In this document: piece after piece, positions 3,978 to 44,209 of the stretch | How positions within the stretch are numbered: position 1 is the stretch's first letter | How the letters are laid out: each line of letters begins with the position of its first letter | Source of the DNA: an uncultured Rhodobacterales bacterium | GTDB taxonomy: Bacteria; Pseudomonadota; Alphaproteobacteria; Rhodobacterales; Rhodobacteraceae | Direction of reading: 5' to 3' | Length of the DNA: 64,000 bases | Assembly (NCBI GenBank): GCA_964499865.1 | Contig: CAZCPY010000001.1 | Location: forward strand, 102,238-166,237 | Translations under genes and position numbers: made by a program | Notes under the pieces: model-generated | The model's input: the letters and a program-made list of their open reading frames with translations, nothing else | What the model was told of the DNA's origin: nothing | The model's database searches: none

Positions 3978-5153
3978 TCAAACTGCGTAGTCATCGTACG
4001 GCAGTTTACTCGACGAGCTCGGCACAGCTCTCAGTGTGAAAGGCGCATACGTAGCAAGATACGTGCCGTCGTCTTGCATTTTGAAGTCTCCAGGGCTGAT
4101 GTCGAACGCCATTTGAACGTTGGCCCCGGCCGGAACGATTTTGGTCGTATCGGCGGCGTCAGCGTCATCGTCATCAGCATTTCTACGGTATCGAGTGAAG
4201 TTGGTGACGACGAATCCATGCGTAAGGAGTTCTTCCTTTGTCGTCGACTCCGCCGTGATACCGTATACGTAGACCCCGTTGTAGCGACATTTGCTGGGAT
4301 TTCCTTCGAGGCTATTCGGAGAAATCACCAATCCTCTGACCAGGGAGATCGACGATTCGAACAACAACCCAAATTCCGCGTATTCGCGTTGAATGTTGAG
4401 AACGCTCAGAGCGTCCTTAACAGTGGCGCGCGGGTTGAAGTCGAGCTCGTCGATTAGCGTCATGATTGAGTCGTAACCGGTACCGGTCAGCTCAGCCACG
4501 ATGTCGTCGAATTCCTCCTTCGTGATCGACCGTTTGAGATTGTCGGTCACGATCTGCAGCAGCTCCTTACCAGACAGGCCACCGTACGAGAAATGGTATC
4601 TGGCGCGATCAGGCCGTCCGAAAAACTCGCTTCGGATCTTTTCCTTACTGTTCGCCAGAATGACGTATAGGTTCCCGCCGCCAATAGAGCCGTCAAGGAT
4701 CGACAACAGCGGCACCTGATCGTCTTCGTCGTAGTGCTTCTCGAATTCATCGAAACACACCACCACCGGCGAGGTCAGGTTGTTGAGGAACGTCTGCAAA
4801 GCGCTACCACTGATGGTCGTCGTGATATGCAGGACGGAAATTCCCGCTTTGATCATCCGATCAGCGACGATGTTGGCGGTCATCGTCTTTCCGCTTCCTC
4901 GCAGGCCGGTCAGCAGAACACCCATTTGCTTGTTCGGCCGACGCACATAGGCATCGACGATCCTGTCAGCGATTTGCTGCGCGTTTCCGTACAGTTTTGT
5001 CGGAATCGCAGCCGGGTTGTTGATCGGGCGGAGGCACACGTTCCCGTCACCGTCGATCATGACTTTGTAGTGTCCGACCGGCAGATTCGGATTCAGGCTG
5101 CTGAAGTTGTGGGCGTAGATGTTCCCACCGCTGTTCGAGAAGAGCGCGTTCAT
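3978..5153 (-). CDS. AAA+ family ATPase
   Basis: Walker A GLRGSGKT and Walker B VVVCFDEFEK at typical AAA+ spacing. ATG start. Confidence 0.8.
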   Translation of the reverse strand: MNALFSNSGGNIYAHNFSSLNPNLPVGHYKVMIDGDGNVCLRPINNPAAIPTKLYGNAQQIADRIVDAYVRRPNKQMGVLLTGLRGSGKTMTANIVADRMIKAGISVLHITTTISGSALQTFLNNLTSPVVVCFDEFEKHYDEDDQVPLLSILDGSIGGGNLYVILANSKEKIRSEFFGRPDRARYHFSYGGLSGKELLQIVTDNLKRSITKEEFDDIVAELTGTGYDSIMTLIDELDFNPRATVKDALSVLNIQREYAEFGLLFESSISLVRGLVISPNSLEGNPSKCRYNGVYVYGITAESTTKEELLTHGFVVTNFTRYRRNADDDDADAADTTKIVPAGANVQMAFDISPGDFKMQDDGTYLATYAPFTLRAVPSSSSKLPYDDYAV

Positions 5154-5239
5154 GTTTGGTTCGGGGACGGAGGTAGAGAACTGTGTCTCAGTCTGAATTT
5201 AGGTTTTGTAGTACGTTGCGCATGGCGGCCCGCTGCAGG

Positions 5240-5614
5240 TCAGGGCCTTGGCGTCTTGGTCATCAGAAGCTGGATTTCTTTTCCATCCGACAGTATGGTG
5301 CAGCTGAACCCGACGAAATCTGGGAACCAGAGCACTCCTACCTCTATGGTCGGTATTGCTTCGTCATATTCAGGCAACTCGTAAAGACAGATACGAGGAG
5401 GTCTGTCCGCAGCGAGTGAGTCGCCATCTCTGTGGACGTAATCTATCATTGCGCAGAGCCTGTGGTGTTTCGAGCTAGCCACCTCTAAGGTGAACAGGGC
5501 GATGTGCTCTGTACAGTGCTCCGCGTGCGCGTACACCGTTGGTTTGACGTGTTGTGTATCACCCTCCACTCTGATGAGCCGGTATGTTAGCCCTTTTATT
5601 GTTTTTGTTTCCAT
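5240..5614 (-). CDS. hypothetical protein
   Basis: 124-aa ORF with ATG start, co-oriented in the minus-strand block. Shares an FPDF(V/T)G(F/W) patch with the 5956..6441 product. Confidence 0.55.
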   Translation of the reverse strand: METKTIKGLTYRLIRVEGDTQHVKPTVYAHAEHCTEHIALFTLEVASSKHHRLCAMIDYVHRDGDSLAADRPPRICLYELPEYDEAIPTIEVGVLWFPDFVGFSCTILSDGKEIQLLMTKTPRP

Positions 5615-9405: not shown

Positions 9406-10179
9406 TTATTGGGGAAGTCCGATAAGTTCGGAGACTATGGGATCGATCAGTCGTTGAACCAGTTCCGCGTACGCCCTAATTTCGTACTGCGCGTCCGGCT
9501 TAAGTCGTTGATGAAGGAAATGAAGCGCGCCTTGCAACGATACGGTCCAGTAAGCTTCGCTGTAGAGATTCTGCGGCAGCATGATGCGCGCGATCTCTTT
9601 TGCGATGCCAGCTTTAAGTCGGTCGTGGTACGCCGTCACCGCGTTTCGACACTCGATAAGCATACTTGCCCGCGCAGCCTCATGGTCAAAATCTTCTGGA
9701 AGCGCTGACGACGCCTGCTTATTTCCGTGCCCGCTATTCGTGCGCATTTTGTTCGGAACATAGAATTCAGGTTCCTTGAATTCGACGTAGCGACCAGATA
9801 TTTCATTCCAACTGCAGCCTTTGTCGGTGTCATACATGTGTTCAACGACGTCGACGTGCACAGGTACAGTTTGATCTGCTATCTCGAGCGTCATCCAAGT
9901 CGAGCCTACTTGGTACTTCATCCACTGCCTGAAAACAAACAGGGGCGCCTTAATGTGGAAGGTCACATACGAGTGTCTGAACGGAGAGGTGTGCCCAGCG
10001 TCCCACAAGAACGAAAGAAGCTTTTTGTCTTTTTCGTCCAGTTCCTCTTTGCGTTTGTTATATGAGATACGCGCTGCGTTGACGGTTTTCAACAGGGCGT
10101 TCTCTTGCATAGAATCAATCAAAGCGACGAAGCCTATGCCGTCTTCAGTCGTTAGTCTTTTCAGTTCGTTAGTCCCCAT
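9406..10179 (-). CDS. ThyX-like (flavin-dependent thymidylate synthase family) protein, divergent
   Basis: GHTSPFRHSYVTFHIKAPLFVFRQW, SWNEISGRY and DAQYEIR match blocks of ThyX as I remember it. The RHR signature position reads KYQ and is followed by an insertion of about 30 aa. Confidence 0.7.
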   Translation of the reverse strand: MGTNELKRLTTEDGIGFVALIDSMQENALLKTVNAARISYNKRKEELDEKDKKLLSFLWDAGHTSPFRHSYVTFHIKAPLFVFRQWMKYQVGSTWMTLEIADQTVPVHVDVVEHMYDTDKGCSWNEISGRYVEFKEPEFYVPNKMRTNSGHGNKQASSALPEDFDHEAARASMLIECRNAVTAYHDRLKAGIAKEIARIMLPQNLYSEAYWTVSLQGALHFLHQRLKPDAQYEIRAYAELVQRLIDPIVSELIGLPQ

Positions 10180-14502: not shown

Positions 14503-14642
14503 TTTGTGTGTGTGTGGTTTGTATGCCTCAATACGGCCTCATCTCGTCGCGTATTTGATCATCCATTAGGGGTGTTGGTATGTGCTTTCAGTATTTGCGT
14601 AAAATTATCGACATCAATATGAGGTAAATACCTCATCATTGT

Positions 14643-14652
14643 TCTTATGCCG
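14643..14652 (-). promoter_or_regulatory. promoter-like motif variant (CGGCATAAGA)
   Basis: Minus strand reads TACGGCATAAGAACAATG, between the end of array 1 and the MazG-like gene. Confidence 0.3.
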
Positions 14653-14713
14653 TAATTAGGTGTGGTTTTTGTAGTAAAGTACCCAGCCTTGTTAATACAG
14701 GACTGGATACTTT

Positions 14714-14896
14714 TCAATGTTGCTCTGAGAGACCGTTCCCAAGACTACACCCTCCTCCGAATCCATATGTCATCCTGTGCCAGGTTCCAGTCCCGTGACC
14801 ATTTCCACGCCAATTTCTATGTCCACTCCCGTAGCCATTCCCGTCCACGGCTCCGTACGCAGGCCGGGTTCCATATCCATAATCGTTAGTCTTCAA
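14714..14896 (-). CDS. Gly/Tyr-rich small protein, array 1 member 10 (60 aa)
   Basis: TTG start overlaps the upstream TGA (TTGA), with AGAGGAA 7 nt upstream. Product is MKTNDYGYGT…GGGCSLGNGLSEQH. Confidence 0.6.
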   Translation of the reverse strand: MKTNDYGYGTRPAYGAVDGNGYGSGHRNWRGNGHGTGTWHRMTYGFGGGCSLGNGLSEQH

Positions 14897-15093
14897 TGTT
14901 TTATTCCTCTGCCAATTCCGTTTCCTTTGTAACCGCCATACCCGTCCCCGCACCAATCTTCGCCCATAGAACGTATACGCCCCCCACATCCATCCCCGAA
15001 CCCACGCTCATACCAACCACCAAACCAATGCCCGTTCCCGTACCCGTCTCCAACTCCATACTCGTCGCCAGTTCCGAAATTATTAATCTTCAA
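14893..15093 (-). CDS. Gly/Tyr-rich small protein, array 1 member 9 (66 aa)
   Basis: TTGA overlap with GGAGGAG upstream. Product is MKINNFGTGDEYGVGDGYGNGHWFGGWY…YKGNGIGRGIKH, 23 of 66 residues Gly by my count. Confidence 0.65.
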   Translation of the reverse strand: MKINNFGTGDEYGVGDGYGNGHWFGGWYERGFGDGCGGRIRSMGEDWCGDGYGGYKGNGIGRGIKH

Positions 15094-15206
15094 TGTCTTA
15101 CTCCTCCTTTTCCTCTTCCAGTCCAGTAGTGAGGTCCGCACCCATATCCGTACCCGTAACCATCTCCAAACCCATACCCAAACAAACTCCAATGTCCATT
15201 CCCGTA
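15032..15206. repeat. 175-nt segment identical to 38491-38665
   Basis: Base-by-base comparison of the two stretches shows no mismatch. It spans the 3' half of member 8, the junction and the 5' part of member 9. Confidence 0.9.
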
Positions 15207-15287
15207 CCCGCGCCCACCCCCGTACACAACCATATATCTATTTCCGTTTGTAAACCAGCCACCACTTCCGGTGTCACGAATATTCAA
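15090..15287 (-). CDS. Gly/Tyr-rich small protein, array 1 member 8 (65 aa)
   Basis: TTGA overlap. Product is MNIRDTGSGGWF…GNGHWSLFGYGFGDGYGYGYGCGPHYWTGRGKGGVRH. The 3' half is identical to the array 3 copy. Confidence 0.65.
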   Translation of the reverse strand: MNIRDTGSGGWFTNGNRYMVVYGGGRGYGNGHWSLFGYGFGDGYGYGYGCGPHYWTGRGKGGVRH

Positions 15288-15487
15288 TGTTTCACTCCTT
15301 TTCCATTTCCCTTGTAATTCTCGTTTCCGCGCCCGTATCCGCCTCCACACCCAGACCAACCCCCATACCCACACCCATTTCCGTTCATATACCCGTGTCC
15401 GTCCCCCCGCGTTGATCCATATACGTGCCCGTTCCAGCACCCAGTCTTAAGCCACTCTGCACTTTCTTCCTTATTATTAATAATCAA
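15284..15487 (-). CDS. Gly/Tyr-rich small protein, array 1 member 7 (67 aa)
   Basis: TTGA overlap with AAAGGAG upstream. Product is MIINNKEESAEWLKTGCWNGHVYG…YKGNGKGVKH. Confidence 0.6.
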   Translation of the reverse strand: MIINNKEESAEWLKTGCWNGHVYGSTRGDGHGYMNGNGCGYGGWSGCGGGYGRGNENYKGNGKGVKH

Positions 15488-15654
15488 TGTTTCTCTCCTT
15501 TTCCGTTTCCAGTCCAGGTGCAAGGCCAACGCCCATACCCTGCTCCATTCCCATCCCGTCTATCGATCCCGCACCCACGCCCGTACACACGCCCGTATCC
15601 ACGCCCAGTTCCTATTATAAGTCCGGTTCCATATCCATAATCGTTAGTCTTCAA
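15484..15654 (-). CDS. Gly/Tyr-rich small protein, array 1 member 6 (56 aa)
   Basis: TTGA overlap. Product is MKTNDYGYGTGLIIGTGRGYG…TWTGNGKGEKH. Confidence 0.6.
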   Translation of the reverse strand: MKTNDYGYGTGLIIGTGRGYGRVYGRGCGIDRRDGNGAGYGRWPCTWTGNGKGEKH

Positions 15655-15833
15655 TGTTTTATTCCTCTGCCAATTCCGTAGTAACCTTCGGGACCGTTTC
15701 CAGATCCGTTTCCATTTCCGCACCCATACTTGTCTCCATCCCCGCGCTCGTACAAACCACCAAACCAATCCCCATTCCCGAACCCACGTCCATATCCACA
15801 CCAGTTTCCACTTCCGTTGTTATTGATCTTCAA
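15651..15833 (-). CDS. Gly/Tyr-rich small protein, array 1 member 5 (60 aa)
   Basis: TTGA overlap. Product is MKINNNGSGNWCGYGRGFGNGDWFGG…YYGIGRGIKH. Confidence 0.6.
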   Translation of the reverse strand: MKINNNGSGNWCGYGRGFGNGDWFGGLYERGDGDKYGCGNGNGSGNGPEGYYGIGRGIKH

Positions 15834-16000
15834 TGTTTTCTTCCTCTGCCTCTTCCGTAGAAAGTTCCGGTGCCGGCCCCGTATCCAATCCCGTGCCCGT
15901 ATCCAAACAAACTCCAATGTCCAGAACCGCATCCGTCTCCAATCTTGACCCATTCCCAGTCCGTAAATCTGGCGCCACTTCCATTGTCATTAATCTTCAA
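15830..16000 (-). CDS. Gly/Tyr-rich small protein, array 1 member 4 (56 aa)
   Basis: TTGA overlap. Product is MKINDNGSGARFTDWEW…GTGTFYGRGRGRKH, with the same C-terminal tail as array 2 member C. Confidence 0.6.
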   Translation of the reverse strand: MKINDNGSGARFTDWEWVKIGDGCGSGHWSLFGYGHGIGYGAGTGTFYGRGRGRKH

Positions 16001-16191
16001 TGTTTTCTTCCTTTTCCATTTCCATTCCAGTTGTATTGCCCGTGCCCAAAACCACCCCCGTGCCCATTCCAGAATCCATATCCTTTCCCGCCACAGCCAC
16101 CAGACCCGTATCCTCTCCCGGATAAATTTCCGACCCCATGCCAGAGTCCACATGCACTCCGGTTTCCAGTTCCGTAGTCATGAATATTCAA
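15997..16191 (-). CDS. Gly/Tyr-rich small protein, array 1 member 3 (64 aa)
   Basis: TTGA overlap. Product is MNIHDYGTGNRSACGLWHG…QYNWNGNGKGRKH. Confidence 0.6.
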   Translation of the reverse strand: MNIHDYGTGNRSACGLWHGVGNLSGRGYGSGGCGGKGYGFWNGHGGGFGHGQYNWNGNGKGRKH

Positions 16192-16388
16192 TGTTTTCTT
16201 CCTCTACCGTTTCCGATTTCGCTATGATTTATATACCCATGCCTACGCCCATTTCCATATACGTATTTATCTCCAAAGTGGTGTCCATATCCAGTTCCAT
16301 TCCCATACTTATACCATTTCCCATTTCCAAACCCATTTCCGTAGCCATTCTTAGCACCGTCGCCACTTCCGTATTTGTTAATTTTCAT
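16188..16388 (-). CDS. Gly/Tyr-rich small protein, array 1 member 2 (66 aa)
   Basis: ATG start in an ATGA overlap with member 1, preceded by AAGGGAAGGAAACA. Product is MKINKYGSGDGAKNGYGNGFGNGKWY…IGNGRGRKH. Confidence 0.65.
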   Translation of the reverse strand: MKINKYGSGDGAKNGYGNGFGNGKWYKYGNGTGYGHHFGDKYVYGNGRRHGYINHSEIGNGRGRKH

Positions 16389-16540
16389 TGTTTCCTTCCC
16401 TTTCCATTCCCGTCGTGCGAGCCTGACCCGAGCCCATATGCTCGACTTTTAGATCGATTATTTTTACAGGCGCGCCGCTTACGACCGCCTCCATATCCTT
16501 GGCCTGTTCGAGAAAACTTGGTGTCGTAGTTTATTTTCAT
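16385..16540 (-). CDS. basic Gly-rich small protein, array 1 member 1 (51 aa)
   Basis: Not in the ORF track because it is under 60 aa. ATG at 16540. Product is MKINYDTKFSRTGQGYGGGRKRRACKNNRSKSRAYGLGSGSHDGNGKGRKQ, which shares the family N- and C-terminal ends. Shine-Dalgarno signal is weak. Confidence 0.45.
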   Translation of the reverse strand: MKINYDTKFSRTGQGYGGGRKRRACKNNRSKSRAYGLGSGSHDGNGKGRKQ

Positions 16541-16572: not shown

Positions 16573-16599
16573 AGCGCTCCCGATTTTACTCGGGAGCGC
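16573..16599 (-). terminator. hairpin between gene 16605..16928 and array 1
   Basis: AGCGCTCCCG-ATTTTACT-CGGGAGCGC forms a 9-10-bp stem 6 nt after the stop. The U-tract is weak, so it may only attenuate. Confidence 0.45.
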
Positions 16600-16604
16600 G
16601 AATC

Positions 16605-16928
16605 TCACAGCCGCTTTGCCGCGCGCACAACAAGGCACATAGCCTTGAGGCGCCGGCGGCGCGCCTTCGCAGACGGTACAGATTGGAACCCGTACCCGCT
16701 GCGAAGCTGCAGATGCAGCGGCCGCACATACTGCATCAAAGTCGCCCGGTTCTTCACCGTGCGATTCTCCAATGCAACCATGACCGCCTCGAGGATGGTC
16801 ATGGCGTACAGCCGCTGGTGCGGCTTGGTACGTCTGCTGACTTTCGCAGCCCTGCTAAGAGCTGCGACGACCCACGCCGGATCAAGCGGCGCGGTCTTCA
16901 AGCGCTCGAGCGCTTCTGTGTATAGCAT
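16605..16928 (-). CDS. hypothetical protein
   Basis: 107-aa ORF with ATG start. First gene downstream of the promoter-like motif at 17103. Confidence 0.55.
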   Translation of the reverse strand: MLYTEALERLKTAPLDPAWVVAALSRAAKVSRRTKPHQRLYAMTILEAVMVALENRTVKNRATLMQYVRPLHLQLRSGYGFQSVPSAKARRRRLKAMCLVVRAAKRL

Positions 16929-20800: not shown

Positions 20801-20900
20801 GGTACCTCCTAGTACTTGCAGTTCTGTCGCAATCCTTGCGACGAGGGAGTAAGTAGAATTACCCACTCATTTACTTATGCCACAAATGGGGGTATTTTTT
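20801..20900 (-). promoter_or_regulatory. conserved promoter plus structured 5' leader, copy 1
   Basis: A 100-nt block matches 44110-44209 at 92 of 100 positions. It holds an A-tract, TTTGTGGCATAAGT, two hairpins and the Shine-Dalgarno sequence TAGGAGG. Confidence 0.55.
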
Positions 20901-22661: not shown

Positions 22662-22712
22662 CTAGTTTCGTGCGCGGTCCGACGGCCGCGAGCCTATGGC
22701 ACGAATCTTCAA
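22662..22712 (-). pseudogene. 16-codon remnant of a further array 2 member
   Basis: The usual TTGA junction follows member E, but the frame reads MKIRAIGSRPSDRARN and then stops. Confidence 0.3.
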
Positions 22713-22885
22713 TGTGTATCTGCTTTTCCATTTCCATTCAAATTCGGACTCCAACGCCCATATCCATGTCCGACCCCATTCCCATCCCGTCTCTCGACCC
22801 CGCACCCACGCCTACGCCAACTCCCGTACCCTTGTCCTTTTCCAGATCCACGCCAAACGCCACTTCCGTAGTCATTAATCTTCAA
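22709..22885 (-). CDS. Gly/Tyr-rich small protein, array 2 member E (58 aa)
   Basis: TTGA overlap with AAAGGAG upstream. Product is MKINDYGSGVWRGSGKGQGYG…NLNGNGKADTH. Confidence 0.6.
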   Translation of the reverse strand: MKINDYGSGVWRGSGKGQGYGSWRRRGCGVERRDGNGVGHGYGRWSPNLNGNGKADTH

Positions 22886-23070
22886 TGTTTTACTCCTTTT
22901 CCGTTTCCATTCCTGTTGTGATCCCCATGCCCATACCCGTCTCCATACTTGTCCCCATCCCCATAGCCACTCCCGGAACCGAACCCACTGCGTCTCCCAT
23001 ACCAATTCCCGATTCCGTATCCGCGACCATATTCACACCAATCGCCAGTTCCGTAGTCGTCGATCTTCAA
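22882..23070 (-). CDS. Gly/Tyr-rich small protein, array 2 member D (62 aa)
   Basis: TTGA overlap. Product is MKIDDYGTGDWCEYGRGYGIGNWYG…HNRNGNGKGVKH. Confidence 0.65.
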   Translation of the reverse strand: MKIDDYGTGDWCEYGRGYGIGNWYGRRSGFGSGSGYGDGDKYGDGYGHGDHNRNGNGKGVKH

Positions 23071-23261
23071 TGTTTTCTTCCTCTGCCTCTTCCGTAGAAA
23101 GTTCCGGTGCCGACCCCATGTCCGTCTCCATTTTCAGATTCGGATCCGTTTCCCCAACCGTCCCCATTCCAACTCCCGCCTGCGCGCCCATCTCCGTACC
23201 CATATCCATAACCGTACCCATTTGCGAATCTGTTTCCATTTCCGAAATCGTTAATCTTCAA
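23067..23261 (-). CDS. Gly/Tyr-rich small protein, array 2 member C (64 aa)
   Basis: TTGA overlap. Product is MKINDFGNGNRFANGYGYGYGYGDG…GTGTFYGRGRGRKH. Confidence 0.65.
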   Translation of the reverse strand: MKINDFGNGNRFANGYGYGYGYGDGRAGGSWNGDGWGNGSESENGDGHGVGTGTFYGRGRGRKH

Positions 23262-23452
23262 TGTTTTCTTCCGCAGTCAAGTCGGTTACTGAATTCTCCC
23301 CCTTTTCCTCTTCCGTTCCCATTCGGGTAGGCAGACCCGAATCCATAGCCATTTCCATCCCGATGCCCAGCCCAACTACCAGACCCACATCCGTGCCCAT
23401 TTCCATACAAATATCCGGACGTACATCCATATCCACAGTTCTTAATATTCAA
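23258..23452 (-). CDS. Gly/Tyr-rich small protein, array 2 member B (64 aa)
   Basis: TTGA overlap. Product is MNIKNCGYGCTSGYLYGNGHGCGSGSW…FSNRLDCGRKH. Confidence 0.6.
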   Translation of the reverse strand: MNIKNCGYGCTSGYLYGNGHGCGSGSWAGHRDGNGYGFGSAYPNGNGRGKGGEFSNRLDCGRKH

Positions 23453-23598
23453 TGTTTTCCTCCTATGCCTCCTTCTCTCCAGGTGCCAGGTCCACCATAC
23501 CCATACCCGCACCAACCACCATACCAATGCCCGTTCTCGTTTCTATACCAATATACAGGGTCGCGCAGTTCGCCGTATCCGCGATTGTTAATCTTCAA
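23449..23598 (-). CDS. Gly/Tyr-rich small protein, array 2 member A (49 aa)
   Basis: TTG at 23598 is preceded by GGAAAAGGAGGAAAACA. Product is MKINNRGYGELRDPVYWYRNENGHWYGGWCGYGYGGPGTWREGGIGGKH. Confidence 0.6.
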   Translation of the reverse strand: MKINNRGYGELRDPVYWYRNENGHWYGGWCGYGYGGPGTWREGGIGGKH

Positions 23599-23688
23599 TG
23601 TTTTCCTCCTTTTCCGTTCACACCAAACGACGTGTTCCTTTCTAAAGTAAATTAAACTGAACAAAGTCCGTAATATACGGCTCACATA

Positions 23689-38408: not shown

Positions 38409-38552
38409 TTAGTGTTTTATTCCCTTTCGGCGCCAGGTCCCGTCACCGTTACTCAGCTCTCCGTACCCGTTTCCTTCCACAGTCCCATAACCGTTCCCGT
38501 ACCCGTCTCCAACTCCATACTCGTCGCCAGTTCCGAAATTATTAATCTTCAA
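38409..38552 (-). CDS. Gly/Tyr-rich small protein, array 3 member 2 (47 aa)
   Basis: TTGA overlap. Product is MKINNFGTGDEYGVGDGYGNGYGTVEGNGYGELSNGDGTWRRKGIKH. Ends with TAA and has no following junction. Confidence 0.6.
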   Translation of the reverse strand: MKINNFGTGDEYGVGDGYGNGYGTVEGNGYGELSNGDGTWRRKGIKH

Positions 38553-38665
38553 TGTCTTACTCCTCCTTTTCCTCTTCCAGTCCAGTAGTGAGGTCCGCAC
38601 CCATATCCGTACCCGTAACCATCTCCAAACCCATACCCAAACAAACTCCAATGTCCATTCCCGTA
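38491..38665. repeat. 175-nt segment identical to 15032-15206
   Basis: Perfect identity read directly. Same orientation, 23,459 nt apart. Confidence 0.9.
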
Positions 38666-38728
38666 TCCACGACCATATCCGTCCCCACTTATGAATCTGT
38701 TTCCATTTCCGAAGTCGTTAATCTTCAA
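38549..38728 (-). CDS. Gly/Tyr-rich small protein, array 3 member 1 (59 aa), mosaic
   Basis: TTG is preceded by GGAAAAGGAGAAAAACA. The N-terminus MKINDFGNGNRF matches array 2 member C. The C-terminal half GNGHWSLFGYGFGDGYGYGYGCGPHYWTGRGKGGVRH matches array 1 member 8. Confidence 0.65.
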   Translation of the reverse strand: MKINDFGNGNRFISGDGYGRGYGNGHWSLFGYGFGDGYGYGYGCGPHYWTGRGKGGVRH

Positions 38729-38763
38729 TGTTTTTCTCCTTTTCCGTTCCCGTCGTGCCGCGC

Positions 38764-43791: not shown

Positions 43792-44106
43792 TCAAAGCCG
43801 GACGCGATGTTCGAAGCGTCGCGGCTGGCCGCCTCTCGACGATATCCACAACCCCTGGTCGGAGTTGTAGAAATCGGTGGTCCTGCGCGCCACTGCGCGC
43901 AACCACTGCACCGCCTCAGTGACGACCGTCCACAGATCGGCGTCGCCACGTAAGCTTGCGGTCGCACGCAAGCGGCAAATCAACGTTACCAACCGGCTTT
44001 CAGCCAGTTGGTCTCCGTTCTTTGCCGATGCGAGCAGCTCCTTCAGCTGCTCGATCACGGCCGCCCTGTCAAAAGGGATCAGCGGTGAGTATTCCGGTGC
44101 GAACAT
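43792..44106 (-). CDS. hypothetical protein (start trimmed)
   Basis: The ATG at 44106 (MFAPEYSPL) is preceded by TAGGAGGTACCCGT. The upstream part of the track ORF is the conserved leader. Confidence 0.5.
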   Translation of the reverse strand: MFAPEYSPLIPFDRAAVIEQLKELLASAKNGDQLAESRLVTLICRLRATASLRGDADLWTVVTEAVQWLRAVARRTTDFYNSDQGLWISSRGGQPRRFEHRVRL

Positions 44107-44109
44107 ACG

Positions 44110-44209
44110 GGTACCTCCTAGTACCTGTAGTTCTGTTGCAGTCCTTGCAACGAGGGAGTAGGTAGAATTACCCACTCATTTACTTATGCCATAAATGAGG
44201 GTATTTTTT
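44110..44209 (-). promoter_or_regulatory. conserved promoter plus structured 5' leader, copy 2
   Basis: Matches 20801-20900 at 92 of 100 positions. Core motif here is TTTATGGCATAAGT. Confidence 0.55.

What the first reader, a model, noticed from the sequence alone, without database searches (positions are those of the whole stretch)
15070..15115. A 30-45-nt junction module encodes the peptide C-terminus, the next Shine-Dalgarno sequence, the stop/start overlap and the next N-terminus
Minus-strand consensus from the junctions I transcribed is GGAAAyGGAAAAGGAGnrAAACATTGAAGATTAATrA. In one frame it reads G-N-G-K-G-x-K-H-stop. The purine run AAAGGAG lies 7 nt before TTG. The TGA stop shares its TG with the TTG start (TTGA), and the next frame reads M-K-I-N-D. 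So the conserved GNGKGxKH tail and MKIND head may be constrained by ribosome re-initiation signals and not only by peptide function. Fifteen of the 17 members would start at TTG, which is an unusually high fraction. That suggests obligatory coupling or deliberately graded expression along the arrays.
Basis: partly seen in the sequence, partly recalled or inferred. Interest (0 to 1): 0.6.

Follow-up and report, generated by a model that had tools for sequence, protein, structure and literature searches.

The report
Dual-coded junctions of phage mini-gene arrays
In an uncultured phage, about 35 bases between each pair of tiny glycine-rich genes encode the end of one peptide, a ribosome-binding site, an overlapping stop/start (TTGA) and the start of the next peptide; this is a very regular case of ordinary translational coupling, not a new mechanism.

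Summary
The window holds 17 minus-strand mini-genes (47-67 aa) in three arrays. Fifteen start at TTG, and each internal junction reads GGA-AAy-GGA-AAA-GGA-Rnr-AAA-CAT-TGA with the TTG sharing its TG with the stop.

Related metagenome contigs add a fourth array and strain variants, giving 24 internal junctions of the same design. All 26 unit lengths are 3n-1.

Codon choice shows selection on the RNA as well as on the peptide. In 20 unique tails versus the gene bodies:
- Gly is GGA in 57/63 versus 173/426.
- Lys is AAA in 30/31 versus 18/33.
- The variable "x" codon is always purine-N-purine (20/20 versus 16%), although it encodes R, V, G, E or I.

Anti-SD complementarity peaks 3-6 nt before the TTG, in a region predicted to be unpaired. 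The phage's 44 ordinary genes all start at ATG and almost never carry an SD.

"Obligatory coupling" is not supported. Arrays 2 and 3 keep the module as an untranslated leader before their first gene.

TTG is most simply explained as forced: a C-terminal His codon (CAT) plus a 4-nt overlap allows only TTG. Both ATG junctions end in Gln (CAA). Both array-final genes with no overlapping downstream start end CAC-TAA.

No expression data exist. The peptides' function is unknown.

The parts
15070..15115 (-). Focal junction A1-7/A1-8. It holds the tail codons GGA AAA GGA GGA GTA AGA CAT, the stop TGA (15092-15090), the start TTG (15093-15091) and the head AAG ATT AAT AAT.
   Evidence: Identical to the array-3 junction at 38552.
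15103..15109 (-). SD-like AAGGAGG inside the coding tail of A1-7. A second, overlapping GGAG ends 7 nt before the TTG.
   Evidence: Anti-SD duplex energy -11.6 kcal/mol. Positional peak across 24 junctions.
14714..16540 (-). Array 1: 10 cistrons of 51, 66, 64, 56, 60, 56, 67, 65, 66 and 60 aa. Starts are at 16540 (ATG, no SD), 16388 (ATG, after ...RKQ), then TTG at 16191, 16000, 15833, 15654, 15487, 15287, 15093 and 14896.
   Evidence: Periods all 3n-1.
16385..16393 (-). The ATG-type junction AAA CAA TGA. The upstream peptide ends in Gln, not His, and the downstream gene starts at ATG.
   Evidence: The same pairing is seen in array 4 (L205 1599).
14714..14737 (-). Degenerate terminal tail of A1-9 (GGG AAC GGT CTC TCA GAG CAA CAT TGA, i.e. 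GNGLSEQH). The purine tract is lost (anti-SD -2.4). CAT-TGA/TTG is kept in front of a doubtful unrelated 52-aa ORF (14717..14559).
   Evidence: Lake-water variants in that ORF fall on codon positions 1-2.
22709..23598 (-). Array 2: 5 cistrons with TTG starts at 23598, 23452, 23261, 23070 and 22885, plus a decayed 16-codon remnant (22712..22662). The last tail, GKADTH, has lost the SD (AAAGCAG).
23599..23625 (-). Junction module retained as a leader in front of the first gene of array 2 (GAACGGAAAAGGAGGAAAACA). The only upstream ORF possible is an 8-codon GTG mini-ORF.
   Evidence: Anti-SD -11.6.
38409..38728 (-). Array 3: 2 cistrons with TTG starts at 38728 and 38552. The last one ends AAA CAC TAA (38417-38409) with no downstream cistron.
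38729..38760 (-). Junction module retained as a leader in front of the first gene of array 3 (CACGACGGGAACGGAAAAGGAGAAAAACA). It is a fossil of an A1-0-like tail (HDGNGKGEKH). The 38-codon upstream frame has no ATG, GTG or TTG.

Best explanation
Each junction is a compact, dual-coded translation (re)initiation module that was copied along with the mini-gene it belongs to. The same ~35 nt do four jobs: (1) encode the C-terminal G-N-G-K-G-x-K-H of peptide n; (2) form a purine-rich, unstructured Shine-Dalgarno-like tract (AAGGAG/GAGGA) and an A-rich spacer (AAAACA); (3) place the UGA stop of cistron n one base inside the UUG start of cistron n+1, a 4-nt overlap that shifts the frame by -1 every unit; (4) encode M-K-I-N-D/N of peptide n+1.

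Shown from sequence: the architecture; its reiteration at 24 internal junctions in four arrays; selection on synonymous and amino-acid-neutral positions towards purines and A in the tail; the positional anti-SD peak; predicted accessibility; and natural variants that link the last codon to the start codon.

Inferred: ribosomes that terminate at UGA restart at the adjacent UUG, helped by SD pairing (termination-reinitiation). The same module also recruits ribosomes directly, as it must for the first genes of arrays 2 and 3. The near-universal UUG is probably not a tuning device. It follows from keeping a C-terminal His (CAU) together with a 4-nt overlap, and the strong SD compensates for the weak start codon.
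For: - Architecture and count.
- All 26 periods are 3n-1, over 14 distinct lengths.
- 20 unique internal tails versus deduplicated bodies: GGA 57/63 vs 173/426 (p=1.5e-14); AAA 30/31 vs 18/33 (p=9e-5); AGA 14/16 vs 18/69 (p=9e-6); CAT 18/18 vs 16/34 (p=5.5e-5); x codon R-N-R 20/20 vs 16% of non-Gly body codons (p=3e-16), while encoding R, V, G, E or I.
- Anti-SD duplex energy at -20..-1: junctions median -7.85 kcal/mol (14/16 at or below -6), versus +0.1 for 44 ordinary genes (3/44) and -2.5 for random positions.
- The energy minimum falls in windows ending 3-6 nt before TTG: -7.8 versus -3.4 in bodies.
- Unpaired probability is 0.72-0.94 at -21..-4, versus about 0.5 in bodies.
- Junction windows are 70% identical pairwise; aligned bodies are 50%, against a codon-shuffled baseline of 39%.
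- Lake-water relatives from other studies align to this array mostly at the junctions and then run on unlike it.
- Natural variants: both ATG junctions follow CAA (Gln). The two array-final genes with no overlapping downstream start (A3-2, A4-8) end CAC-TAA. The single L201/L205 SNP is CAT>CGT, which changes His to Arg but keeps the T of TTG.
- The module is present as an untranslated leader at the heads of arrays 2 and 3.
- Literature: 4-nt overlaps give strict coupling by termination-reinitiation, and an SD inside the upstream gene contributes to a degree that varies from pair to pair (PMC6728339; review PMC12548453).
Against: - No transcript, ribosome-profiling or proteomic data exist for this phage. 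Translation, start sites and coupling are all inferred.
- The junctions are paralogous copies subject to gene conversion (175-nt identical tract). The counts are therefore not independent, even after deduplication.
- The phage's other genes, including 7 true ATGA overlaps, work without an SD and are G-depleted upstream. If the unknown host is SD-blind, the purine tract cannot act by SD pairing.
- The terminal gene of array 4 keeps a full AAAGGAGGAAAACAC tail with no downstream cistron. Tail conservation therefore does not require a downstream gene.
- GGA is also invariant at Gly codon 7 of the head, 24/24 Gly codons there. An SD role does not explain this.
Confidence: 0.6

Rival explanations
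1. Peptide-only constraint. GNGKGxKH and MKIND are functional peptide ends (for example recognition, processing or charge motifs). On this view the SD-likeness is an accident of Gly (GGN) and Lys (AAR) codons, and genes overlap only because the genome is compact.
For: M-x-I-N is kept with different codons in the two uncoupled leader genes. The terminal His is kept as CAC where no start is needed. The array-4 terminal gene keeps the full tail without a downstream gene.
Against: It cannot explain the synonymous skew (GGA, AAA, AGA, CAT). It cannot explain the 20/20 R-N-R rule at a position that tolerates R, V, G, E and I. It cannot explain the sharp positional anti-SD peak, or the retention of the tail codons as untranslated leaders at two array heads.
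Confidence: 0.1
2. Concerted evolution only. The junction is conserved because it is the homology used for unequal crossing-over and gene conversion, or because duplication is recent. There is no selection on initiation signals, and the TTG fraction is a frozen accident.
For: A 175-nt perfect tract is shared between arrays 1 and 3 and spans the focal junction. Tail cassettes are shared between arrays (A1-3 = A2-3, A1-4 = A1-8). A strain-level cassette swap is seen in L001.
Against: Within the module, positions vary freely where purine content is preserved (x codon, AAT/AAC) and never elsewhere. Homogenisation would erase variation uniformly. Bodies have diverged to about 50% nt identity, yet 23/23 unique junctions keep the AACA-(T/A)TGA core. 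The observed recombination breakpoints lie inside gene bodies (about 15145; 15032; 15206), not at module edges.
Confidence: 0.12
3. The purine tract is not an SD. In a host or phage system that initiates without SD pairing, it serves only as an unstructured, A-enriched landing zone, or has another role such as ribosome pausing. Re-initiation at the 4-nt overlap would then need no SD, as at the phage's other ATGA overlaps.
For: Only 3 of 44 ordinary genes reach -6 kcal/mol against the anti-SD, and none of the 7 ATGA overlaps does. Their upstream regions are G-depleted, with A at -2/-3. The skew to GGA and AAA also lowers G content. Bacteroidia ribosomes are blind to SD sequences (PMC13000453, PMC7797042). 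Bacteroidetes use an SD for neither de novo initiation nor re-initiation (PMC6728339).
Against: The x codon starts with G (making GGAG) in about half of the unique tails and is never AAA, which pure A-enrichment would favour. Complementarity to the anti-SD peaks exactly at canonical spacing. The only host clue, ThyX at 60-66% identity to Planctomycetota, points to a phylum with intermediate SD use (PMC6728339).
Confidence: 0.13
4. Programmed frameshifting. Ribosomes slip -1 at the A-rich run before the UGA and read on into the next unit, producing poly-peptide fusions instead of separate peptides.
For: An SD-like element close to a stop codon is reminiscent of recoding sites.
Against: There is no X XXY YYZ heptamer: the sequence is A AAA CAT. 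CAU cannot re-pair in the -1 or +1 frame. The +1 frame hits TAA within 3 codons. No downstream structure is predicted. Every unit carries its own start codon with an SD at initiation spacing.
Confidence: 0.02

Closest known systems
Translationally coupled cistrons with a 4-nt stop/start overlap (ATGA type; termination-reinitiation, Huber et al. 2019, PMC6728339)
   Same: Co-directional ORFs. The stop of the upstream gene overlaps the start of the downstream gene by 4 nt. An SD-like motif is embedded in the 3' coding end of the upstream gene. The same phage uses ATGA overlaps elsewhere: 7 pairs in the window.
   Different: The start is TTG instead of ATG in 22 of 24 internal junctions. The design is reiterated 24 times as a near-identical cassette. 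It carries a strong SD in a genome whose other overlaps carry none. The same cassette also serves as a 5' leader at two array heads. Dependence on upstream translation has not been tested.
Dual-coding constraints around gene boundaries: fourth-site adenine enrichment and ATGA overlaps (PMC5850271). From my own knowledge, Eyre-Walker 1996 on a downstream SD shaping synonymous codon use at the 3' ends of E. coli genes; I did not retrieve that paper here.
   Same: Nucleotide-level selection is superimposed on the coding sequence at the end of one gene and the start of the next. Base +4 is an A forced by the TGA.
   Different: In bacterial genomes this is a statistical trend over thousands of unrelated genes. 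Here it is visible codon by codon in one paralogous family, including an amino-acid-variable position that is fixed as purine-N-purine.
Multi-copy tandem precursor-peptide genes of RiPP systems (e.g. prochlorosin/NHLP-type arrays), from my own knowledge
   Same: Many tandem small genes with conserved ends and a hypervariable middle.
   Different: There is no 20-80-aa leader, no Pfam leader family and no modifying enzyme next to the arrays. The conserved ends are only 5 and 8 residues long and coincide with the initiation signals. This is a resemblance only.
prfB-type recoding site (SD, short spacer, slippery codon, in-frame UGA), from my own knowledge and PMC10798248
   Same: An SD-like element lies a few nucleotides upstream of an in-frame UGA.
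   Different: The spacing is 5-6 nt rather than 3. CAU is not slippery. The +1 frame closes after 3 codons. A start codon overlaps the stop.

Membership tests
4-nt-overlap translationally coupled gene pairs (termination-reinitiation) | Co-directional ORFs whose stop and start codons overlap by 4 nt (NTGA) | tested here: met
   24 internal junctions: 22 TTGA and 2 ATGA. Periods are all 3n-1.
4-nt-overlap translationally coupled gene pairs (termination-reinitiation) | SD-like motif upstream of the downstream start, inside the upstream ORF (frequent but not obligatory) | tested here: met
   Median anti-SD energy is -7.85 kcal/mol. The peak falls in windows ending 3-6 nt before the start.
4-nt-overlap translationally coupled gene pairs (termination-reinitiation) | Both ORFs on one transcript | tested here: inconclusive
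   No sigma-70-like promoter was found inside array 1 (0 found, 3.2 expected), and no minus-strand terminator-like site lies inside the arrays. No RNA data exist.
4-nt-overlap translationally coupled gene pairs (termination-reinitiation) | Translation of the downstream ORF depends on translation and termination of the upstream ORF | not testable with these tools
   Needs reporters or ribosome profiling. Sequence evidence argues against strict dependence: the module heads arrays 2 and 3 with no upstream ORF, and the tract is predicted to be unpaired.
Programmed -1 ribosomal frameshift site | Slippery heptamer X XXY YYZ followed by a stimulatory downstream structure | tested here: not met
   The sequence is GGA AAA CAT TGA, which has no heptamer. 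The downstream region is not predicted to be structured.
prfB-like +1 frameshift site | SD 3 nt upstream of a codon that can re-pair in +1, an in-frame UGA, and an open +1 frame | tested here: not met
   The spacing is 5-6 nt. CAU-U cannot re-pair. The +1 frame reads ATT GAA GAT TAA.
RiPP precursor-peptide arrays | Recognisable leader or follower family and adjacent modifying enzymes | tested here: not met
   There are no significant Pfam hits for the peptides. Ten neighbouring genes give only a Cpn10 hit. A profile of the 17 peptides found only the window's own member among 1.84 billion representative proteins.

The most novel reading that the evidence does not exclude
The arrays are a separate translation regime within the phage. 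The ordinary genes start at ATG, lack an SD and are G-poor upstream. The roughly 26 mini-genes instead use strong SD + UUG + UGA-overlap modules. Their expression would then be gated by the availability of ribosomes with a free anti-SD or by a particular ribosome or infection state, by analogy with rpsU translation by bS21-less ribosomes in Bacteroidia. The UUG would make each cistron strictly dependent on that state, or on the ribosome delivered by the upstream cistron.
Probability: 0.12. Interest if true: 0.75.

Novelty: new variant of a known kind. Interest (0 to 1): 0.42.

Why it matters
This is an unusually clean natural example of dual coding at gene boundaries. In one paralogous family, individual codons can be assigned to peptide constraint or to ribosome-binding constraint. 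The x position changes amino acid freely but never leaves purine-N-purine. The last codon switches His/TTG, Gln/ATG and His(CAC)/TAA in step with what follows it.

It gives a ready-made set of natural variants for testing how an SD, a weak UUG start and a 4-nt overlap combine in re-initiation. The mechanism of re-initiation is still debated, with 30S scanning, 70S scanning and RNA unfolding all proposed (PMC12548453).

It matters for annotation. Gene callers mis-frame these genes: one contig has an alternative-frame ATG ORF called in place of the TTG cistron. The contrast with the phage's otherwise SD-free, ATG-only genes raises a testable question about differential translation within one virus.

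It does not reveal what the glycine-rich peptides do.

Tried and rejected
Searches that found nothing useful:
- blastn of the array against 50,697 phage records gave no match.
- The strict junction pattern gave no match in viral contigs.
- A triple-junction pattern in viral and genome contigs gave about 200 loci. All were chance hits or unrelated tandem repeats after screening with a regex and tblastn.
- A profile of the 17 peptides against 1.84 billion representative proteins found only the window's own member.
- A search for relatives of the neighbouring exonuclease in viral contigs found none.
- Exact-protein look-ups of three other members were not on record.
- No RNA sequencing runs were found.
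- Pfam, PDB-sequence and Rfam searches returned nothing meaningful.
- AlphaFold2 with 28 sequences gave pLDDT 41 and no usable fold.

Host and SD usage:
- tblastn of the ATPase and ThyX against phages gave only distant and mixed hosts.
- I tested SD usage in the Planctomycetota loci that carry the closest ThyX. The result is inconclusive, because crude start calling fails at 68% GC.

Readings rejected:
- TGA recoding. 26 of the 44 ordinary genes end in TGA, and at all 7 ATGA overlaps a TGA stop abuts the next gene's start. Read-through would also stop at the next junction's TAA.
- The alternative-frame ATG ORFs (MTxE...) as the real genes. Only 9 of 27 heads provide the ATG.
- Junctions as recombination boundaries. 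The observed breakpoints lie inside gene bodies.

Full report
**1. What is there**

The minus strand of the window carries three tandem arrays of small ORFs:
- Array 1: 16540..14714, 10 members.
- Array 2: 23598..22709, 5 members plus a 16-codon remnant.
- Array 3: 38728..38409, 2 members.

The products are 47-67 aa long. About one third of the residues are Gly, mostly as G-x-G-x with x = Y, N, W, H, R, D or C. They begin M-K-I-N-D/N and end G-N-G-K-G-x-K-H.

The focal coordinates 15070-15115 are the A1-7/A1-8 junction. This is a slightly off-consensus copy (…GKGGVRH, AGA for AAA). It lies within a 175-nt block identical to array 3 (15032-15206 = 38491-38665).

**2. More copies from elsewhere**

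An exact-protein look-up and one pattern scan of metagenome contigs recovered three contigs from a single ENA study.
- L001 is 98% identical to array 1 for 1.6 kb: four SNPs and one in-frame 6-nt indel. It then switches, inside the body of A1-7, to cassettes that are absent from the window.
- L201 and L205 carry a fourth array of nine members. It has a GTG leader gene, seven TTG genes and one ATG gene.
- This gives 24 internal junctions, 23 of them unique.

Their consensus over -30..+21 is ntnnaanGGAaanGGaAaAGGAggAAAACA TTG AAgATTaAtgActacGGA. All 26 start-to-start periods (14 different lengths, 146-200 nt) equal 3n-1. That is exactly what an ORF running from each TTG to a TGA overlapping the next TTG requires. 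It is the strongest sequence-only evidence that this frame is maintained by selection.

Lake-water metagenomes from other studies contain relatives. Their contigs align to array 1 mainly at the junctions and then diverge.

Nothing related was found in 50,697 phage records, in IMG/VR, in one genome for each of 185,579 species, or among 1.84 billion representative proteins.

**3. Is the junction constrained as RNA?**

I compared codon choice in the last eight codons of 20 unique internal tails with the deduplicated bodies of the same genes.

| Feature | Tails | Bodies | p |
|---|---|---|---|
| Gly as GGA | 57/63 | 173/426 | 1.5e-14 |
| Lys as AAA | 30/31 | 18/33 | 9e-5 |
| Arg as AGA | 14/16 | 18/69 | 9e-6 |
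| His as CAT | 18/18 | 16/34 | 5.5e-5 |
| x codon purine-N-purine | 20/20 | 16% of non-Gly codons | 3e-16 |

The x position is the most telling. It encodes R, V, G, E or I, which are chemically unrelated, yet its codon is always purine-N-purine. This is not simple homogenisation by gene conversion, because the position varies; it varies only within purine space.

Three further measurements agree.
- Complementarity to the 16S anti-SD (ACCUCCUUA) peaks for 10-nt windows ending 3-6 nt before the TTG: mean -7.8 kcal/mol, against -3.4 in bodies.
- The tract at -21..-4 is predicted to be 72-94% unpaired, against about 50% elsewhere.
- Ungapped junction windows are 70% identical pairwise. Aligned bodies are 50%, with a codon-shuffled baseline of 39%.

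**4. Natural controls**

(a) Start codon and last residue co-vary. Both ATG junctions (16388 and L205:1599) follow AAA CAA TGA, so the upstream peptide ends in Gln. All TTG junctions follow CAT.

(b) The two array-final genes with no overlapping downstream start (A3-2 and A4-8) end AAA CAC TAA. His is kept, but the T and the TGA are not. They share an N-terminal half, so this may be a single event.

(c) The only difference between L201 and L205 over 2.57 kb is CAT>CGT at a junction. It changes His to Arg but keeps the T of the TTG.

(d) Two other array-terminal tails have lost the purine tract while keeping H-stop: GNGLSEQH at 14714, and GKADTH at 22709.

(e) The first genes of arrays 2 and 3 are preceded by the full module as non-coding sequence. 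Before 38728 the tail frame (…ARHDGNGKGEKH, a fossil of an A1-0-like gene) has no ATG, GTG or TTG in 38 codons. Before 23598 only an 8-codon GTG ORF is possible.

(f) The two genuine leader genes, A1-0 (ATG AAA ATA AAC) and A4-0 (GTG GAA ATT AAC), keep x-I-N with different codons and without an SD.

**5. Genome context**

The phage's 44 ordinary genes all start at ATG. Their upstream regions are G-depleted, with A at -2/-3, and only 3 of 44 reach -6 kcal/mol against the anti-SD. The median is +0.1, which is less SD-like than random positions at -2.5. Seven true ATGA overlaps carry no strong SD.

The arrays are therefore the exception in their own genome, both in start codon and in SD. The host is unknown. 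The phage ThyX is 60-66% identical to ThyX of many Planctomycetota MAGs. [quoted passage not shown] My attempt to measure SD use in those loci was inconclusive.

**6. Interpretation**

The further inference of obligatory coupling or graded expression from the TTG fraction does not hold, for three reasons.
- The TTGs are descendants of one junction.
- The module functions, or at least persists, without any upstream cistron at two array heads.
- The site looks open to direct 30S binding.

The simplest account of TTG is a coding trade-off. The CA of the last codon is invariant in all 23 unique internal junctions, and only the L201 SNP (CGT) departs from it. That CA does not match the phage's own preferred -2/-1 context, and His is retained as CAC in the two array-final genes (A3-2, A4-8) that have no overlapping downstream start. 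So His is probably wanted by the peptide. With a 4-nt overlap, CAT-TGA then leaves TTG as the only possible start, and CAA or CAG (Gln) is the price of ATG or GTG. A strong SD and an A-rich, unstructured spacer would offset the weak start.

Termination-reinitiation at such overlaps, with a gene-specific contribution from the embedded SD, is established biology (PMC6728339; PMC12548453). What is unusual here is the TTGA form, its 24-fold reiteration as a cassette, and its contrast with the rest of the genome.

**7. Limits**

- No expression data exist.
- The paralogues are not independent observations, and gene conversion is active.
- The array-4 terminal gene keeps a full purine tail without a downstream gene.
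- GGA at head codon 7 is invariant for no reason I can give.
- If the host proves to be SD-blind, the tract must act otherwise.
- The peptides have no detectable relatives, family or fold, so their function remains unknown.

**8. Verdict**

This is a new variant (TTGA, iterated, dual-coded cassette) of a known kind of translational coupling, and its interest is moderate.

Noticed in passing
whole window (44 ordinary genes, e.g. starts at 5153, 10179, 12212, 27436, 53662): Outside the arrays, the phage's genes all start at ATG and lack an SD (median anti-SD energy +0.1 kcal/mol, below random). They are G-depleted upstream, with A at -2/-3. Seven ATGA overlaps have no SD. This is an SD-independent initiation style reminiscent of Bacteroidia or cyanobacteria, although the host is unknown.
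   Followed up: partly
window 9406-10179 (-): The phage ThyX is 60-66% identical to ThyX of about 40 Planctomycetota MAGs, many of them from lakes and other waters. This is the only host-lineage clue. Those loci are 68% GC, against about 50% for the phage.
   Followed up: partly
heads of all members, e.g. window 15075-15073 (-), codon 7: The first Gly of the head (codon 7) is GGA in all 24 members that have Gly there, whereas the next Gly (codon 9) uses GGC, GGA, GGT and GGG freely. The neighbouring codons 4-6 vary, so this is neither homogenisation nor SD-related. It is unexplained.
   Followed up: no
every junction, e.g. window 15093-15073 (-): All three reading frames are punctuated at each junction. 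The upstream frame stops at TGA. The third frame meets a stop (usually TAA, from ATT-AAY) within 21 nt in 24 of 27 heads. The Gly-rich bodies are open in several frames, so an out-of-frame ribosome would be reset at every junction.
   Followed up: partly
L001 (ENA ERZ1066113 contig), 1477-1972; window about 15145: A strain variant of array 1 is nearly identical for 1.6 kb. It then switches inside the body of A1-7 to cassettes that are absent from the window (MIINHYRDNNGYGY..., MKLNDYGYGSGSKKG...). One in-frame 6-nt indel lies in A1-2. This shows rapid cassette turnover between samples of one study.
   Followed up: partly
L201 1-445 and window 44104-44158: The contig carrying array 4 begins with a further copy of the roughly 100-nt promoter/leader block that is duplicated at 20801-20900 and 44110-44209. 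Here it precedes an unrelated 130-aa gene. Array 4 is therefore probably another part of the same, or a sister, phage genome.
   Followed up: no
L120 (Cyanobacteriota MAG08_tar_biofilm, JAXHSW010000104.1), minus strand about 4340-5600 of the reverse complement: This is a tandem repeat of about 93-107 nt. Each unit carries GGGAGGAAAAAACA-TTG-AAACTTGATAAT, i.e. an SD plus a TTG mini-ORF (MKLDNYHLRNISDYSS). My junction pattern picked it up, so the resemblance (SD, A-run, TTGAA, MK-L/I-D/N-N-Y) is partly selected for and may be chance. Parts of the locus are masked.
   Followed up: no
window 16574-16599 (-): A perfect hairpin GCGCTCCCG-AGTAAAAT-CGGGAGCGC is followed by a T-rich run. It lies between the stop of gene 16605..16928 and the first cistron of array 1. 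It is terminator-like, but the consensus scan did not list it.
   Followed up: no
window 14559-14717 (-): A 52-aa ORF unrelated to the family is joined to the last array-1 gene by the same CAT-TGA/TTG overlap, but without an SD. Four variants from lake-water relatives fall inside this ORF, all on codon positions 1-2. It may not be a real gene.
   Followed up: partly
L001 gene calls (774-944): The public gene call on one contig picked an alternative-frame ATG ORF (MTMEVAPDL..., 56 aa) in place of the TTG cistron. Automatic annotation of these arrays is unreliable.
   Followed up: partly
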